This document shows, in pieces, positions 24,001 to 27,000 of a stretch of 64,000 bases of DNA. Within the stretch, counting starts at the first letter, position 1. Each line of letters opens with the position of its first letter. This DNA is from Candidatus Omnitrophota bacterium (GTDB taxonomy: Bacteria > Omnitrophota > Gorgyraeia > Gygaellales > Profunditerraquicolaceae). The DNA lies in NCBI GenBank assembly GCA_043798795.1, contig JAZDOJ010000052.1:30940-94939 (forward strand), in the 5' to 3' direction. The position numbers are program-made.

Positions 24001-27000
24001 CGTGCTGCCGTAAGTTTAGCGCTCATTAAAAAAATAATTGATTCTCATCCTTTTGTTGATATAATGATTTTGTCTTACGAAAGCATAAAGCGAAATCGCT
24101 TCATGCAAGGTTCATAGGGAAGGAGAGAGAGGAAATGATTACAGAAATCGGTATTGTGGCCGGCGATATATGGCATTTTTTGGACCAGCACGGAGAGGTT
24201 AGCATCTCGTTTCTCGTGAAAGGCATCGATAAGCCGCGCGATAATGTGTTGATGAGCCTGGGGTGGTTGGCGCGAGAGGGGCACGCGATCGTCCGGCAAG
24301 TTGAAGGGGATTATAAAATTAGCTTAAGGAAAGAGGATTAATCCTTGCGATGAATAAAAGAGGCGTGTTGTTGCTTATCGTGATTACGACTATAGTGGTA
24401 GCTATTGTTTTGAGTAATGTCATTTTAAATATAATGCTTAGTCAAGGCCGCCTGACCACCTATGAGCTCCACCGCATTCAGGCAAAATACGCGTGCATGG
24501 CAGGCATCAATTGGGGTTACCAAAATTTAATAACAGAGGATTGGGCAAGACCCTCAGTCGGAAATTGTGACAGAAGATCCCTGACAGATTCTGATGCTAC
24601 CTTTCCTTCCTCTATCAATAGCATTGATGTTTATATAGCCTCTCCTGGTGCCGCCTGTTTTAATGCCCTTGGTCAGCAAGTGACCGAGCCCTGCGAACCC
24701 CCTGATGGAGCTGAAGTTTGTATCAGCTCTGTGGCAGACTTCGTTTACACGCCTTAAAATCTTCCATTAAGAATATTATAATCTAAGTAAGACTATTATA
24801 AGATTATATGATCTAGCATGCATCATATTTCTTCTCAGCTAAGTAAAATAAGTAAGTCTGAGTAAGTCTATATAAGAAAACACTTGACAATATAAAAGTA
24901 TTATGTTCTAATTAAGCCTAATGTATTTTGTTATTATTTATAGGCATTTTGTTTCATGTGGTTGTGTTTAGGAGTATATTCGCATGACGAGATTAATGGA
25001 TGTTGATGAGTTAGCGGATTATCTGAGATTGAAAAAACAGACCATTTACAATTGGCTGCATCAGGCAAAGATCTCAGGGTTTAAGGTCGGCGGTGTATGG
25101 AGATTCGATCGTAAAGACGTGGAGGATTGGCTAAAAAGCCGAAGGCGGCTCTCAAAAGATTCAAGATTCGGAGAAAAACAATGAGTTCTCTAGGGATATA
25201 TTTTGGGTCTAAATCGATAAAAATAGTGGAGTGTAGAGGCCGCAAAATCATAAATACTGCCGAAATCCGTCACTCCACGGTCTCCGCGGGAGAATTGGAA
25301 GAGAAAGTTCCCATGGAAGTGAAGACCATTGAATTTGTCGCGCTTTTTAAAGATGAATTGCGAAGAAATAAGATTACCACTAAAGAGGCGGCCCTTTCTC
25401 TTTCTGGCAAGGATCTCATCATCAGGACCTTTGAGATACCCATGATCCCGCGCGAAGAGATAGAAAGCGCCGTCAATTTTGAAGCCAAAAAATACATCCC
25501 CTTTAAAGTCGAAGAGTTGATAACGGATTTTCAGCTGAAATTTGATAAGAGCAGCCATACGAACACGGTCTTTTTCATGGGGTTGAAAAGAGACACCTTG
25601 GACAAATACGTGGCTATCATGCAACAGTTAGGTATCAAGATTAGCGTTGTCGAATATTCAGCTTTTAGCATGATAAGGTGTTTGAAGCTGAGTGGCCTAA
25701 GCGATAAGGGAAATATAGCGATCTTAAGTGTTGATTTGATGGGGGAGGATGATGTTAATTTTACGGTTCTGGATAATGGTTTTCCTCTGTTCAGTCGGGA
25801 TATCTCTTTGACAAGAGGTCCGGAAAGCATAGTCCGGCTGAGAGAAGCCGGGCCCCAGGAGGCGCTCGAGAGGCTCAAGACAGAACTTCATGTTTCCTTG
25901 GATTACTATAACAGTAAATTTCCCACCAAGGGTCTCAAAAAAATATTTCTTATTTCCCAACAGGCCAACCGTTCGGAGATAGAGGCGATGATCAGGGAAT
26001 CCAATTTACAGGTTCAGTCTCTTAATACAGATACTTACCTGGAGAAGCCCGCTCCTTTCTCTTTGAGTTTTTTAAAAGCCTACAGCGCTTCTTTAGCCAA
26101 AACGATCAGGCTGCCTTTGAAGGTTGATCTCTTGACTGTCAGGGAAAAGTTAAAGTCGTTAAAAGAGAGAGCTCTTCCTAGGGCAAGGGTGTTTCGCCTT
26201 GAGGATTTAAGGCTGGATTACCGGATCCTCATCCTGGGTCTCCTGTTATGTGCCGGTGCGTACGGTTATGGCGTTTATCAAATGAAACCTTTACGTAGGG
26301 AACTCGTTGATGTCATGGCTCAAAGAAAAGCGGTTGCGAGCATCCATGCTGGCGCTGGTCAGGTAGAGTTAACCAAGATCGCTGTTTCGAACAAGGCCAA
26401 GCTTGAGTCCCTGGAAAGCCTTATCAATGGGCAGGTCTATCTTACGGAAATATTCAACGCCATCTCCCGGGATTTGCCTGAGGGCGTTTGGTTCATCGGT
26501 CTCTCTTTAGTCAAGAAAGAAGGAGGGAGGGTTGAGTTTGTTTTGGAAGGCAGAGTGAATCTGGGGGATGGCGATCAAGAATTCGAAGCCGTAAACAATC
26601 TCCTTTCGAACCTTCAAAACAGTCCTGATTTCGCCAAATACTTTATGCAAATCACTATAAGTTCTTTAAACCGGCAGACTTCAGGGGAACTGCTTTTTCC
26701 TTATACCCTGTTTAGCATTTCTTGTAGAAGCTACGTTAGCGAGTAATAGTCCTATGGATACCTCTGAATGGATTTTTAAAAACAAGAATAAGATCATCAA
26801 CATTTTATTTGTTGCTTTGTTTCTTTTTATTGCGGGAAAGATTTACGGCAAGCAGCTTGAGGCCATGAATCTTTTAGTGGAAAAGAAAGATCTGGAATTG
26901 AAAAAAAATGTCATATTGGACGGTATCAGCGGCACGGAGAAAAAAATCGCTGCCTACAGGAAGCTTCTGGGAGAAAAGGATGGTAGCAGCGTCATAAACA

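What the first reader, a model, noticed from the sequence alone, without database searches (positions are those of the whole stretch)
24984..25184. Xis-family HTH gene translationally coupled (ATGA overlap) to pilMN
A 66-aa excisionase-type HTH protein (LMDVDELADYL...TIYNWL...GGVWRFDRKDVEDWL) ends with its TGA overlapping the ATG of the PilM-N fusion. This implies co-transcription and translational coupling with the pilus assembly genes. It looks like a co-opted Xis-like regulator or DNA-bending factor rather than a phage remnant, because no integrase or phage genes are nearby.
Basis: partly seen in the sequence, partly recalled or inferred. Interest (0 to 1): 0.6.

Follow-up and report, generated by a model that had tools for sequence, protein, structure and literature searches.

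The report
Conserved small DNA-binding gene leading pilus operon
A 66-residue excisionase-like DNA-binding protein is the conserved first gene of the type IV pilus assembly operon across the uncultured phylum Omnitrophota, and it is most likely a dedicated regulator that binds short repeats in its own promoter rather than a leftover of a virus.

Summary
ORF 24984-25184 (+) encodes a 66-aa HTH_17/excisionase-type winged helix, and its TGA overlaps the ATG of a PilM-PilN fusion gene (ATGA, 25181-25184). The window comes from an Omnitrophota genome.

It is not a phage remnant:
- In 79 of 79 informative loci from other species the ortholog lies directly 5' of pilMN, inside conserved chromosomal synteny.
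- 70 of the 79 junctions are stop/start overlaps and 6 more are gaps of 3 nt or less.
- The protein is far more conserved than PilMN (median 76% versus 43% identity).
- The pairing persists in relatives down to 54% identity and in a second type of pilus cluster.

A near-consensus sigma-70 promoter lies just upstream: TTGACA, 17 nt, TG-n-TCTAAT. It is preceded by 10-bp-phased direct repeats RAGTAAGT. In 870 kb of related DNA this tandem repeat occurs only at this promoter. In divergent clades it sits at other positions of the same promoter.

The predicted fold is closest to BldC and Xis, which bind direct repeats head-to-tail.

Best reading: an operon-leader autoregulator of the pilus genes. 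DNA binding and the sign of regulation are inferred, not shown. It is a new member of a known kind, of moderate interest.

The parts
24984..25184 (+). Gene for the 66-aa HTH_17 (excisionase/BldC-like) winged-helix protein, first gene of the pilus operon
   Evidence: AF2 model with pLDDT 81 and topology b1-a1-a2-b2-b3-a3. Foldseek top hits are BldC, RacA and Pukovnik Xis. Orthologs at 67-85% identity in 80 species. Codon-position pattern 0.19/0.08/0.52.
25181..25184 (+). ATGA stop/start overlap between the HTH_17 gene and pilMN
   Evidence: Read directly. Same ATGA in 52 of 79 other species, a 1-nt overlap in 16 and an 8-nt overlap in 2.
25170..25173 (+). GGAG Shine-Dalgarno for pilMN, embedded in the last codons (G-E-K-Q) of the HTH_17 gene
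   Evidence: GGAG/GAAA is conserved at this position in orthologs, which explains the conserved C-terminal G-E-K.
24970..24974 (+). AGGAG Shine-Dalgarno for the HTH_17 gene
   Evidence: lies 9 nt before the ATG at 24984.
24884..24912 (+). Sigma-70-type promoter: -35 TTGACA (24884-24889), 17-nt spacer, extended -10 TG (24904-24905), -10 TCTAAT (24907-24912). The inferred transcription start is near 24919.
   Evidence: Read. The same TTGACA-17-T(T/C)TAAT with TG is present in 71 of 75 loci, with the spacer always 17 nt. Anchored consensus of 74 loci. The generic scanner missed it because it requires A at position 2 of the -10.
24869..24883 (+). A-rich tract TATATAAGAAAACAC directly upstream of the -35 (UP-element-like; consensus TAtatAAAAAAAcAC)
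   Evidence: The UP-element reading rests on my knowledge of the E. coli proximal subsite consensus AAAAAARNR and was not tested.
24842..24868 (+). Three 10-bp-phased direct repeats AGTAAA / AGTAAGTCT / AGTAAGTCT, starting at 24842, 24851 and 24861; candidate operator
   Evidence: (period 10, 100% match). Repeats at fixed -33/-23 from the -35 hexamer; at least 2 strict copies in 55 of 71 loci; 49 strict tandem matches in 870 kb, all upstream of this gene.
24785..24791 (+). Distal extra AAGTAAG copy in the AT-rich intergenic region
25181..26746 (+). pilMN: PilM-PilN fusion, 521 aa
   Evidence: Pfam PilM_2 and PilN. TIGR01175 and Amuc_1101 family below cut-off. Start confirmed by orthologs.
26754..27260 (+). 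pilO
   Evidence: Pfam PilO.
27265..27810 (+). 181-aa protein without a Pfam hit here, in the position of PilP. Orthologs carry faint T2SSB hits.
27812..29401 (+). pilQ secretin
   Evidence: Pfam Secretin, Secretin_N and STN.
29404..31125 (+). pilB assembly ATPase with an MshEN-type N-terminus
   Evidence: NCBIfam TIGR02538 at 618 bits, below the equivalog cut-off of 675.65; c-di-GMP-binding motif NF053729 at 66 bits.
31125..32354 (+). pilC platform protein
   Evidence: NCBIfam GspF/PilC.
32484..34283 (+). Four pilin-like genes with an N_methyl motif; probable end of the cluster, followed by a tRNA at 34375-34447

Best explanation
The 66-aa protein is a stand-alone MerR/Xis/BldC-type winged-helix DNA-binding protein that has become the fixed leader gene of the Omnitrophota type IV pilus assembly operon (HTH_17-pilMN-pilO-x-pilQ-pilB-pilC, probably through the pilins).

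Proposed mechanism:
- The operon is transcribed from a very strong sigma-70 promoter with a consensus -35, a 17-nt spacer, an extended -10 and an A-tract.
- The small protein is translated first. PilMN translation is coupled to it through the ATGA overlap and an internal GGAG, so its amount reports operon output.
- The protein then binds the 10-bp-phased direct repeats RAGTAAGT in its own promoter, probably as a head-to-tail oligomer like BldC and Xis, and so sets pilus gene expression (autoregulation).
- I lean towards negative feedback, because the promoter needs no activator. In a second clade the repeats lie over the transcription start, and in many loci a weaker in-phase copy lies in the spacer.

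Shown: the gene, its fold class, the junction, the promoter and the repeats, and their co-conservation across the phylum.
Inferred: co-transcription, translational coupling, that this protein is what binds the repeats, and the sign of regulation.
For: Gene pairing:
- The ortholog lies immediately 5' of pilMN in 79 of 79 informative species loci.
- Relatives at 66, 65, 63, 62 and 54% identity are also followed by PilM-type genes.
- This includes a different cluster type with an Amuc_1100-like protein and two secretins and a complete genome, CP070837.1.
- Junction overlaps are conserved.

Cis elements:
- The promoter TTGACA-17-TGnT(T/C)TAAT is present in 71 of 75 loci.
- The anchored consensus taAGTAAgT.TaaGTAAgt.TAtatAAAAAAAcACTTGACAAaaTAA shows repeats at fixed -33/-23, and a conserved TAA at +9..+11 of the spacer, in phase with them.
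- The strict tandem repeat occurs 49 times in 870 kb of Omnitrophota DNA, every time upstream of this gene. In the 64-kb window it occurs once, against 0.19 expected.
- In the divergent loci L210 and L217 the same AGTAAG-N4-AGTAAG lies downstream of the -10, with another copy at +7 of the spacer. In L215 copies lie on both sides.
- So the motif travels with the HTH_17-pilMN operon while its position changes. L217 has no DUF2582 gene within the 5.4 kb fetched upstream or the 10 kb fetched downstream.

Protein:
- The fold is b1-a1-a2-b2-b3-a3.
- The best PDB matches are BldC-DNA complexes (6ama, 6amk), RacA, Pukovnik Xis, pSK1 Par and RdfS.
- BldC binds variable numbers of direct repeats as head-to-tail multimers (PMC5859096).
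- Recognition-helix and wing residues (QTIYNWL, GGVWRF) are invariant, matching the invariance of the DNA motif.
- Median identity is 76%, against 43% for PilMN and 36% for PilO in the same loci.
Against: - There is no binding, expression or genetic evidence of any kind.
- Four loci (L042, L057, L064, L070; probably one clade) keep the protein at 77% identity but have no AGTAAG repeats. The protein therefore has either another target or function, or a changed site.
- A second, equally conserved small winged-helix protein (DUF2582, median 76% identity) is encoded about 650 nt upstream in most loci and could be the repeat binder.
- The repeats plus the A-tract could act simply as curved or UP-like DNA.
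- Conservation of about 76% across a phylum is higher than expected for a single-operon autoregulator and hints at more partners.
- The sampled DNA around the loci cannot exclude further sites elsewhere in the genomes.
Confidence: 0.5

Rival explanations
1. It is a pleiotropic BldC-like regulator or nucleoid-associated protein. It controls many genes, or shapes DNA generally, and merely rides at the head of the pilus operon. The AGTAAGT repeats would be one of many sites.
For: It is extremely conserved: median 76% identity, with an invariant DNA-reading surface. This is comparable to ExbB and PilB and far above its operon partners. BldC, the best structural match, is a pleiotropic regulator. 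Four loci keep the protein without the repeats.
Against: The tandem motif was found only at its own promoter in 870 kb of related DNA and once in the 64-kb window. The strict gene pairing with pilMN holds in two cluster types and down to 54% identity, which is not expected for a general factor. The complete genome CP070837.1 carries other HTH_17 paralogs elsewhere, so this one looks specialised.
Confidence: 0.15
2. It has a non-transcriptional role at the pilus machine. The protein would bind the cytoplasmic PilM domain, for example tethering DNA for uptake or acting as an assembly cofactor, and is made in fixed ratio with PilMN through translational coupling.
For: The adjacency is specifically to PilM(N) in every cluster type seen, even when all other neighbours differ. 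The stop/start overlap suits stoichiometric production. The protein persists where the repeats are lost.
Against: In every case it is also simply the first gene after the promoter, so adjacency to PilM and operon leadership cannot be separated. The fold and its closest solved relatives are DNA binders. No HTH_17-PilM fusion appeared among 150 cluster representatives. A conserved DNA motif co-travels with the gene.
Confidence: 0.12
3. The AGTAAGT repeats are bound by something else (the DUF2582 winged-helix protein, another factor, or nothing, acting as curved or UP-like DNA), and the HTH_17 protein acts on a different, unidentified site.
For: DUF2582 is equally conserved and is encoded about 650 nt upstream with its own strong promoter in most loci. 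The repeats abut an A-tract in the UP-element position.
Against: L217 and L210 carry the repeats and the HTH_17-pilMN pair with no DUF2582 gene in the fetched DNA (5.4 kb upstream and 10 kb downstream in L217; L210 is only 909 nt). In those loci the repeats lie downstream of the -10, where UP-like function is impossible. The DUF2582 promoter itself lacks the repeats.
Confidence: 0.15
4. It is a degenerate prophage or integrative-element excisionase left next to the pilus genes by chance.
For: It matches the excisionase-family domain models TIGR01764 and PHROG 66 'excisionase and transcriptional regulator'. The closest solved sequence is a mycobacteriophage Xis, at E = 0.024.
Against: The position and synteny are identical in 79 of 79 species. 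Selection is strongly purifying. There is no integrase or phage gene in 10.9-42 kb. GC content is similar to pilMN, 0.42 versus 0.44. No close relatives occur on viral contigs.
Confidence: 0.01

Closest known systems
BldC of Streptomyces (stand-alone MerR-like winged helix, 68 aa; PDB 6ama, 6amk; PMC5859096)
   Same: It has the same size and domain content: a winged helix only, with no dimerisation or effector domain. It is the best structural match (TM 0.62-0.80, rmsd 1.6-2.1 A over 50-52 residues). BldC binds variable numbers of direct repeats as head-to-tail multimers, and here phased direct repeats sit in the protein's own promoter.
   Different: Sequence identity is only 22-24%. The NCBIfam BldC model scores 17.7 bits against a cut-off of 77. 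The BldC repeat is AATT-N4-C, whereas here it is RAGTAAGT with a 10-bp period. BldC is a pleiotropic developmental regulator encoded on its own. This protein is the translationally coupled leader gene of one operon. DNA binding is untested here.
Phage and ICE excisionases / recombination directionality factors (lambda and Pukovnik Xis, RdfS, GIsul2 Xis; Pfam HTH_17, TIGR01764)
   Same: It meets the domain family models above their cut-offs. The fold is the same. Members bind direct repeats cooperatively, and several also regulate transcription (RdfS, PMC11963761, abstract listed).
   Different: There is no integrase, no attachment site and no mobile element. It has a fixed chromosomal position across a phylum, and its partner gene is pilMN. 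It is therefore not a directionality factor in any tested respect.
MAD1, the small HTH protein of the methylation-associated defence system MADS (NF047737; PADLOC mad1)
   Same: This is the highest-scoring named model for the protein: 73.3 bits over residues 3-50, and 35.7 bits in PADLOC.
   Different: The score is below the curated cut-off of 80 bits. None of the other MADS genes is nearby; the neighbours are pilus genes.
Known regulators of type IV pilus genes (PilS/PilR with sigma-54, AlgR/FimS, CRP-type and others; from my own knowledge)
   Same: They share the presumed role of controlling expression of pilus genes.
   Different: Those are two-component or global regulators encoded separately, and they mainly act on pilin genes. 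To my knowledge, and in the searched literature, no Xis/BldC-type protein has been described as the leader gene of a pilMNOPQ operon.

Membership tests
Pfam HTH_17 / TIGR01764 excisionase-family DNA-binding domain | Score above the curated cut-off of the family model | tested here: met
   HTH_17 61.8 bits (cut-off 27), covering 51/51 profile positions. TIGR01764 51.9 bits (cut-off 28.8).
Pfam HTH_17 / TIGR01764 excisionase-family DNA-binding domain | Winged-helix topology b-a-a-b-b(-a) | tested here: met
   AF2 model with pLDDT 81: E4-6, H7-14, H18-26, E32-35, E38-42, H43-60. Foldseek hits to Xis, BldC, RacA and MerR N-domains.
Excisionase / recombination directionality factor (functional class) | Encoded next to an integrase within a mobile element | tested here: not met
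   No integrase or phage gene in 10.9-42 kb. Neighbours are identical in 79 species.
Excisionase / recombination directionality factor (functional class) | Patchy, mobile distribution | tested here: not met
   Fixed synteny across the phylum. Only two weak relatives on viral contigs.
Excisionase / recombination directionality factor (functional class) | Stimulates excisive recombination | not testable with these tools
   This needs an experiment. There is no recombinase partner to test with.
BldC family | Score above the NF033787 cut-off (77 bits) | tested here: not met
   17.7 bits. Not found by profile search of PDB sequences.
BldC family | Stand-alone winged helix of about 60-70 aa lacking the MerR coiled coil and effector domain | tested here: met
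   66 aa; single domain plus a basic C-terminal helix. Best structural matches are 6ama and 6amk.
BldC family | Head-to-tail multimer binding to direct repeats | not testable with these tools
   Phased direct repeats exist in its promoter, but binding was not tested.
MADS defence system, MAD1 | Score above the NF047737 cut-off (80 bits) | tested here: not met
   73.3 bits.
MADS defence system, MAD1 | Neighbouring MADS genes | tested here: not met
   Neighbours are the GspK-like gene and pilMN. PADLOC found nothing for the upstream small protein.
Classical MerR regulators | C-terminal coiled-coil dimerisation helix and effector-binding domain | tested here: not met
   The protein ends at residue 66. 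Residues 57-66 are disordered in the model.
Classical MerR regulators | Palindromic operator within a 19-20 bp promoter spacer | tested here: not met
   The spacer is 17 nt in all 71 loci. The repeats are direct, not inverted.
AlpA / Q-type antiterminators | [quoted passage not shown] | tested here: not met
   In AlpA the HTH is helices H7-H8, with residues 128-142 in the major groove, and an N-terminal ring segment precedes it (PMC9371919). This protein has 66 residues and the HTH starts at residue 7.
Type IVa pilus assembly operon (pilMNOPQ with pilB and pilC) | PilM, PilN, PilO, secretin, assembly ATPase and platform protein encoded together | tested here: met
   Pfam and NCBIfam hits. Gaps between genes are 0-7 nt from 25181 to 32354.

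The most novel reading that the evidence does not exclude
The protein and the phased AGTAAGT repeats form a phylum-wide switch for the host-attachment pilus of Omnitrophota. BldC-like head-to-tail filaments would nucleate on the repeats and spread over the A-tract, the -35 and the in-phase spacer copy. The protein might also contact the PilM domain, so that machine assembly state feeds back on transcription. That would be a new regulatory logic for type IV pili, and a handle on the lifestyle of an uncultured phylum.
Probability: 0.15. Interest if true: 0.65.

Novelty: new member of a known kind. Interest (0 to 1): 0.42.

Why it matters
Type IVa pili are encoded by nearly all Omnitrophota and are thought to mediate attachment to host or prey cells in this uncultured, largely host-dependent phylum (Seymour et al. 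2023, PMC10066038). Nothing is known about how they are controlled.

This work gives a concrete candidate regulator, its promoter and a candidate operator, all conserved across the phylum. Because the promoter is a consensus sigma-70 type, the whole circuit can be tested in E. coli without cultivating the organism.

It is also a clean example of an excisionase-type fold recruited to a stable chromosomal role. That matters for annotation: these genes are currently labelled 'excisionase family DNA binding protein' and could be mistaken for prophage markers.

Tried and rejected
1. Regulon search by scanning metagenome contigs for TAAGTAAGTNTNAGTAAGT. Of 120 stretches, the 9 that have the promoter (or, in L106, a TTGACT variant of it) downstream all carry the HTH_17 gene. 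Most of the other 111 are (TAAG)n-type microsatellites from eukaryote-rich samples. The scan therefore says nothing about further sites. One contig (L201) has five AAGTAAG-like repeats upstream of an etfB-like gene and a 41%-identical HTH_17 gene 2.3 kb away. This is an anecdote only.

2. AlpA/Q-like antitermination of the long operon. Rejected, because AlpA needs a long N-terminal ring segment that is absent here.

3. Protein-DNA covariation. The four loci without repeats share L16I and H26Y/N, but they are probably one clade, and residue 26 also varies where repeats are present. Not informative.

4. 'Two paralogs' in Omnitrophica SM23_72 (P0002, P0004). Both lie in the complete, identical synteny, so they are two strains in one bin or a large duplication, not a second context.

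5. Rfam scan of the window: only a tRNA. No RNA family lies in the leader region.

6. The generic promoter scanner did not report the real promoter because of its -10 rule. It was found by cross-species comparison instead.

7. Viral contigs: no close relatives.

8. Complex prediction of the protein with PilM or with DNA could not be run with the available tools.
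Full report
**What is there**

The window is from a member of the phylum Omnitrophota. The 66-aa product is identical to an NCBI protein of a 'Candidatus Omnitrophota bacterium', and more than 1000 homologs, mostly 62-68 aa and 73-92% identical, come almost only from Omnitrophota assemblies.

- It starts at an ATG with an AGGAG 9 nt upstream.
- It encodes MTRLMDVDELADYLRLKKQTIYNWLHQAKISGFKVGGVWRFDRKDVEDWLKSRRRLSKDSRFGEKQ.
- It ends in the tetranucleotide ATGA (25181-25184), whose ATG starts the next gene.

The next gene encodes a 521-aa PilM-PilN fusion (PilM_2 at residues 5-208, PilN at 424-496). After it, with gaps of 0-7 nt, come:
- pilO;
- a 181-aa gene in the PilP position;
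- the secretin pilQ;
- the ATPase pilB;
- the platform gene pilC.

Four pilin-like genes follow after a 129-nt gap, and then a tRNA.

The small protein matches Pfam HTH_17 (61.8 bits) and TIGR01764 'excisionase family DNA-binding domain' (51.9 bits), both well above their cut-offs. There is one copy in the window.

**It is a real, strongly selected gene and not a phage remnant**

A scan of one genome per species found 333 relatives, and the best 80 loci were fetched. In all 79 loci where DNA continues beyond the gene, the next gene is the pilMN ortholog. Wherever the fetched contig reaches far enough, the wider order TPR protein-ExbB-ExbD-two small genes-DUF2582-GspK-like | HTH_17-pilMN-pilO-x-pilQ-pilB-pilC is retained. 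In some loci the ExbB-to-unk92 block between the TPR gene and DUF2582 is missing.

Pairwise nucleotide differences among 81 orthologs are 0.19, 0.08 and 0.52 at codon positions 1, 2 and 3.

Within the same loci, median identity to the window proteins is:

| Protein | Median identity |
|---|---|
| HTH_17 protein | 76% |
| PilMN | 43% |
| PilO | 36% |
| PilQ | 51% |
| PilB | 74% |

The loci were chosen as the best matches to the small protein, which biases its own figure upwards. The contrast with its neighbours is still large.

Further points against a phage origin:
- Between 10.9 and 42 kb the window holds only housekeeping and pilus genes, with no integrase.
- The gene's GC content (0.42) is like that of pilMN (0.44).
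- Among 2.9 million viral contigs only two weak relatives (38-50% identity) were confirmed.
- The apparent two paralogs in one published bin both lie in the full synteny, so they give no second context.

**The junction**

Among the 79 other species, the distance from the stop of the small gene to the pilMN start is distributed as follows:

| Junction | Species |
|---|---|
| ATGA overlap (-4) | 52 |
| TAATG/TGATG overlap (-1) | 16 |
| 8-nt overlap | 2 |
| Gap of 1-3 nt | 6 |
| Larger (one is an assembly gap) | 3 |

A GGAG lies 7 nt before the pilMN ATG, inside the last codons of the small gene. This explains why the otherwise variable C-terminus ends in a conserved G-E-K.

The geometry expected for translational coupling is therefore conserved. 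Coupling itself is inferred.

**The promoter and the repeats**

Cross-species comparison of the upstream region revealed a promoter that the generic scanner missed. In 71 of 75 loci there is TTGACA, exactly 17 nt, then T(T/C)TAAT preceded by TG (an extended -10), ending a median 40 nt before the start codon.

In the window the elements are:
- -35 at 24884-24889;
- TG at 24904-24905;
- -10 at 24907-24912.

The consensus anchored on the -35, from 74 loci, is taAGTAAgT.TaaGTAAgt.TAtatAAAAAAAcAC-TTGACA-AaaTAA.t.TtTTATGtTtTAATTaA.

Upstream of the -35 there is therefore an A-tract in the position of an UP element. Beyond it are two (sometimes three) direct repeats RAGTAAGT, exactly 10 bp apart, at fixed positions -33 and -23 from the first base of the -35 hexamer. 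In some loci they sit one helical turn further upstream. At least two strict copies are present in 55 of 71 loci, and only 4 loci have none.

In the window the repeats start at 24842, 24851 and 24861. Tandem Repeats Finder reports period 10 with 100% match. The 16-nt pattern occurs at this one site, as an exact match plus an overlapping 2-mismatch match 10 nt downstream, where 0.19 matches are expected.

In 870 kb of fetched Omnitrophota DNA, on both strands, the strict tandem [AG]GTAAG-N4-[AG]GTAAG occurs 49 times. Of these, 48 lie within 250 nt upstream of this gene, and the last lies at -319 in a locus with an insertion.

A conserved TAA at +9..+11 of the spacer lies in phase with the repeats and reads AATAAG in many loci.

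The neighbouring DUF2582 gene has its own conserved strong promoter but no such repeats. Strong promoters are therefore common in this lineage, but the repeats are specific to this one.

**Divergent relatives**

A search of 1.84 billion cluster representatives shows a huge HTH_17 superfamily (5222 hits at E <= 0.001) but only 47 clusters at E <= 1e-10. Contexts were retrieved for seven of them:

| Relative | Identity to query | Context |
|---|---|---|
| P0124 | 66% | followed by a PilM-like gene, ATGA overlap |
| P0130 | 65% | followed by PilM, 19-nt gap |
| P0126 | 63% | followed by a 531-aa PilM_2 protein, 33-nt gap |
| P0143 | 62% | followed by PilM_2, 1-nt overlap |
| P0144 | 54% | followed by a 510-aa PilM_2 protein, overlapping |
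| P0148 | 54% | sits among small unknown ORFs, no PilM |
| P0127 | 76% (over 51 aa) | contig ends just after the gene |

The 65% clade is a second Omnitrophota subfamily of 73-78 aa. In locus L217 it leads a different kind of pilus cluster:
- pseudopilin genes lie upstream;
- the cluster then runs HTH_17-PilMN-Amuc_1100-like protein-two secretins;
- there is no DUF2582 within the 5.4 kb fetched upstream or the 10 kb fetched downstream.

In L217 and L210 the promoter reads TTGACA-A-AGTAAG...TATACT-ttgttata-AGTAAG-atta-AGTAAG. The same tandem repeat is present, but it lies just downstream of the -10, with one copy at +7 of the spacer. In the complete genome CP070837.1 (L215), copies lie on both sides of the promoter, and the gene again overlaps pilMN by ATGA.

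The DNA motif thus accompanies the HTH_17-pilMN pair in three clades while its position within the promoter changes. This is the behaviour expected of an operator for a factor that travels with the operon, and the only such factor encoded there is the small protein.

**Fold and relatives**

The AlphaFold2 model (pLDDT 81) has the topology b1-a1-a2-b2-b3-a3, with a disordered tail from residue 57. Foldseek against the PDB ranks these first:
- BldC bound to DNA (6ama, 6amk);
- RacA;
- mycobacteriophage Pukovnik Xis;
- the pSK1 Par centromere-binding domain;
- the excisionases RdfS and GIsul2;
- MerR-type N-domains.

By sequence, the only PDB match is Pukovnik Xis, at E = 0.024.

BldC is a 68-aa stand-alone winged helix that binds variable numbers of direct repeats as head-to-tail multimers and distorts the DNA (PMC5859096). 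That matches the anatomy seen here.

Membership in the named families fails where it was tested:
- The BldC model scores 17.7 bits against a cut-off of 77.
- The MADS defence protein MAD1 model scores 73.3 bits against a cut-off of 80, and no MADS genes are nearby.
- The protein is not a classical MerR: it has no coiled coil or effector domain, the promoter spacer is 17 nt, and the repeats are direct.
- It cannot be an AlpA-type antiterminator, which needs a long N-terminal ring segment (PMC9371919).
- As a recombination directionality factor it fails every testable criterion.

**Most likely mechanism**

The operon is transcribed from a very strong promoter. The first product is the small winged-helix protein, and PilMN translation is coupled to it. 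The protein binds the phased AGTAAGT repeats, probably cooperatively and head-to-tail, and thereby tunes its own operon.

I favour negative feedback for three reasons:
- The promoter is already near-consensus.
- In the second clade the repeats cover the transcription start region.
- In the main clade an in-phase array runs from -33 through the A-tract to +7 of the spacer, so an extending oligomer could exclude RNA polymerase.

Activation from the -55/-65 position cannot be excluded.

My confidence that this protein is a pilus-operon regulator acting at these repeats is about 0.5. My confidence in the conserved leader-gene architecture is above 0.9.

**What argues against it**
- There are no binding or expression data.
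- Four loci, probably one clade, keep the protein but lack the repeats.
- DUF2582 is an alternative binder in most loci.
- The very high conservation hints at additional partners or targets.

These points feed the rivals: a pleiotropic regulator (0.15), a PilM-associated non-transcriptional role (0.12), and repeats bound by another factor (0.15). The prophage-remnant reading is refuted (0.01).

**Novelty and interest**

No paper in the searchable library links an excisionase-like or HTH_17 gene with pilM in Omnitrophota or elsewhere. The main phylum-wide study reports type IVa pili in 135 of 141 Velamenicoccia genomes and proposes a role in host attachment, but it does not mention this gene (PMC10066038).

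The protein is a new member of a known kind: small BldC/Xis-like winged-helix DNA binders, here dedicated to a pilus operon. It is useful rather than startling, and I score interest at 0.42. It gives a testable regulator-operator pair for the key surface organelle of an uncultured phylum, and it warns against reading such 'excisionase family' genes as prophage markers.

Noticed in passing
window 23897-23994 and 42937-43039; also L005, L021, L031, L049 upstream of DUF2582, and L035 between the promoter and the HTH_17 gene: A dispersed imperfect-palindrome element of about 100 nt lies in intergenic regions, with a shared core ...GGCCGAA..TAATCCTTG...CAAGGAT.AATTCGC.CATAAACTTA.G... It looks like a REP/MITE-like repeat or a small RNA of Omnitrophota. 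There is no Rfam match at gathering threshold.
   Followed up: partly
window 24135-24341 and 24350-24757: This is a second pairing of a small winged-helix gene with a pilus gene. A 68-aa DUF2582 protein (median 76% identity across species) has its own conserved promoter AAAAAGTAGTTGACA-N17-TAtAAT. It is followed, mostly 1-10 nt later (the two genes overlap in one related locus), by a 135-aa GspK-like minor-pseudopilin-type gene.
   Followed up: partly
window 25181-26746; L215, L217, L211, L213: PilM and PilN are fused into one 510-542 aa protein throughout Omnitrophota. The window protein also gives sub-threshold matches to the Akkermansia Amuc_1101 family, and PilQ to the Amuc_1098 family, which hints at a PVC-type pilus lineage.
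   Followed up: no
L217 (GCA_043800065.1, JAZDNG010000010.1) 279-12496: This is a second Omnitrophota pilus cluster type. It has pseudopilins, a 784-aa unknown protein, then HTH_17 (76 aa)-PilMN (542 aa)-Amuc_1100-like/T2SSM_b protein-TPR/STN protein-two secretin genes. The AGTAAG tandem lies downstream of the -10.
   Followed up: partly
L215 (complete genome CP070837.1) 3261-4175: Two further HTH_17 proteins lie just upstream of ExbB-ExbD-TonB_C-DUF2582: a 190-aa bactofilin-HTH_17 fusion and a 104-aa protein. HTH_17 paralogs therefore exist in other roles in the same genome.
   Followed up: no
L201 2227-3100 and 562-828: A metagenome contig carries five AAGTAAG-like repeats in the 70-nt gap upstream of an etfB-like gene (acyl-CoA dehydrogenase-etfB-etfA operon). 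A 41%-identical HTH_17 gene lies 2.3 kb away on the same (minus) strand as that operon, downstream of it. This may hint that related proteins use similar repeats elsewhere.
   Followed up: partly
window 23590-23868: A conserved 92-aa protein has an N-terminal hydrophobic segment and a C-terminal CxxC...CPRCG zinc-ribbon. It overlaps the end of the preceding 211-aa gene, has no Pfam hit, and is conserved in most loci (median 62% identity).
   Followed up: no
window 5819-5866, 10906-10967 and (inverted) 19475-19511: Runs of 7-nt tandem repeats AGTTCA(A/G) are present. The two direct-strand arrays (5819-5866, 10906-10967) lie in short spacers between genes; the inverted copy lies within the 5' part of the TPR ORF as listed (19341-21914).
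   Followed up: no
window 14214-14308 and 14331-14425: Two 95-nt copies, 75% identical and 117 nt apart, lie in the 14175-14534 stretch, which has no ORF of 100 aa or more. This may be a small gene with an internal duplication.
   Followed up: no
L084 and L085 (GCA_001304135.1, Omnitrophica WOR_2 SM23_72): The published bin holds two contigs with the same region (UvrA to the pilus genes; 11-16 kb fetched) at about 90% protein identity. This suggests either two strains binned together or a large duplication.
   Followed up: partly
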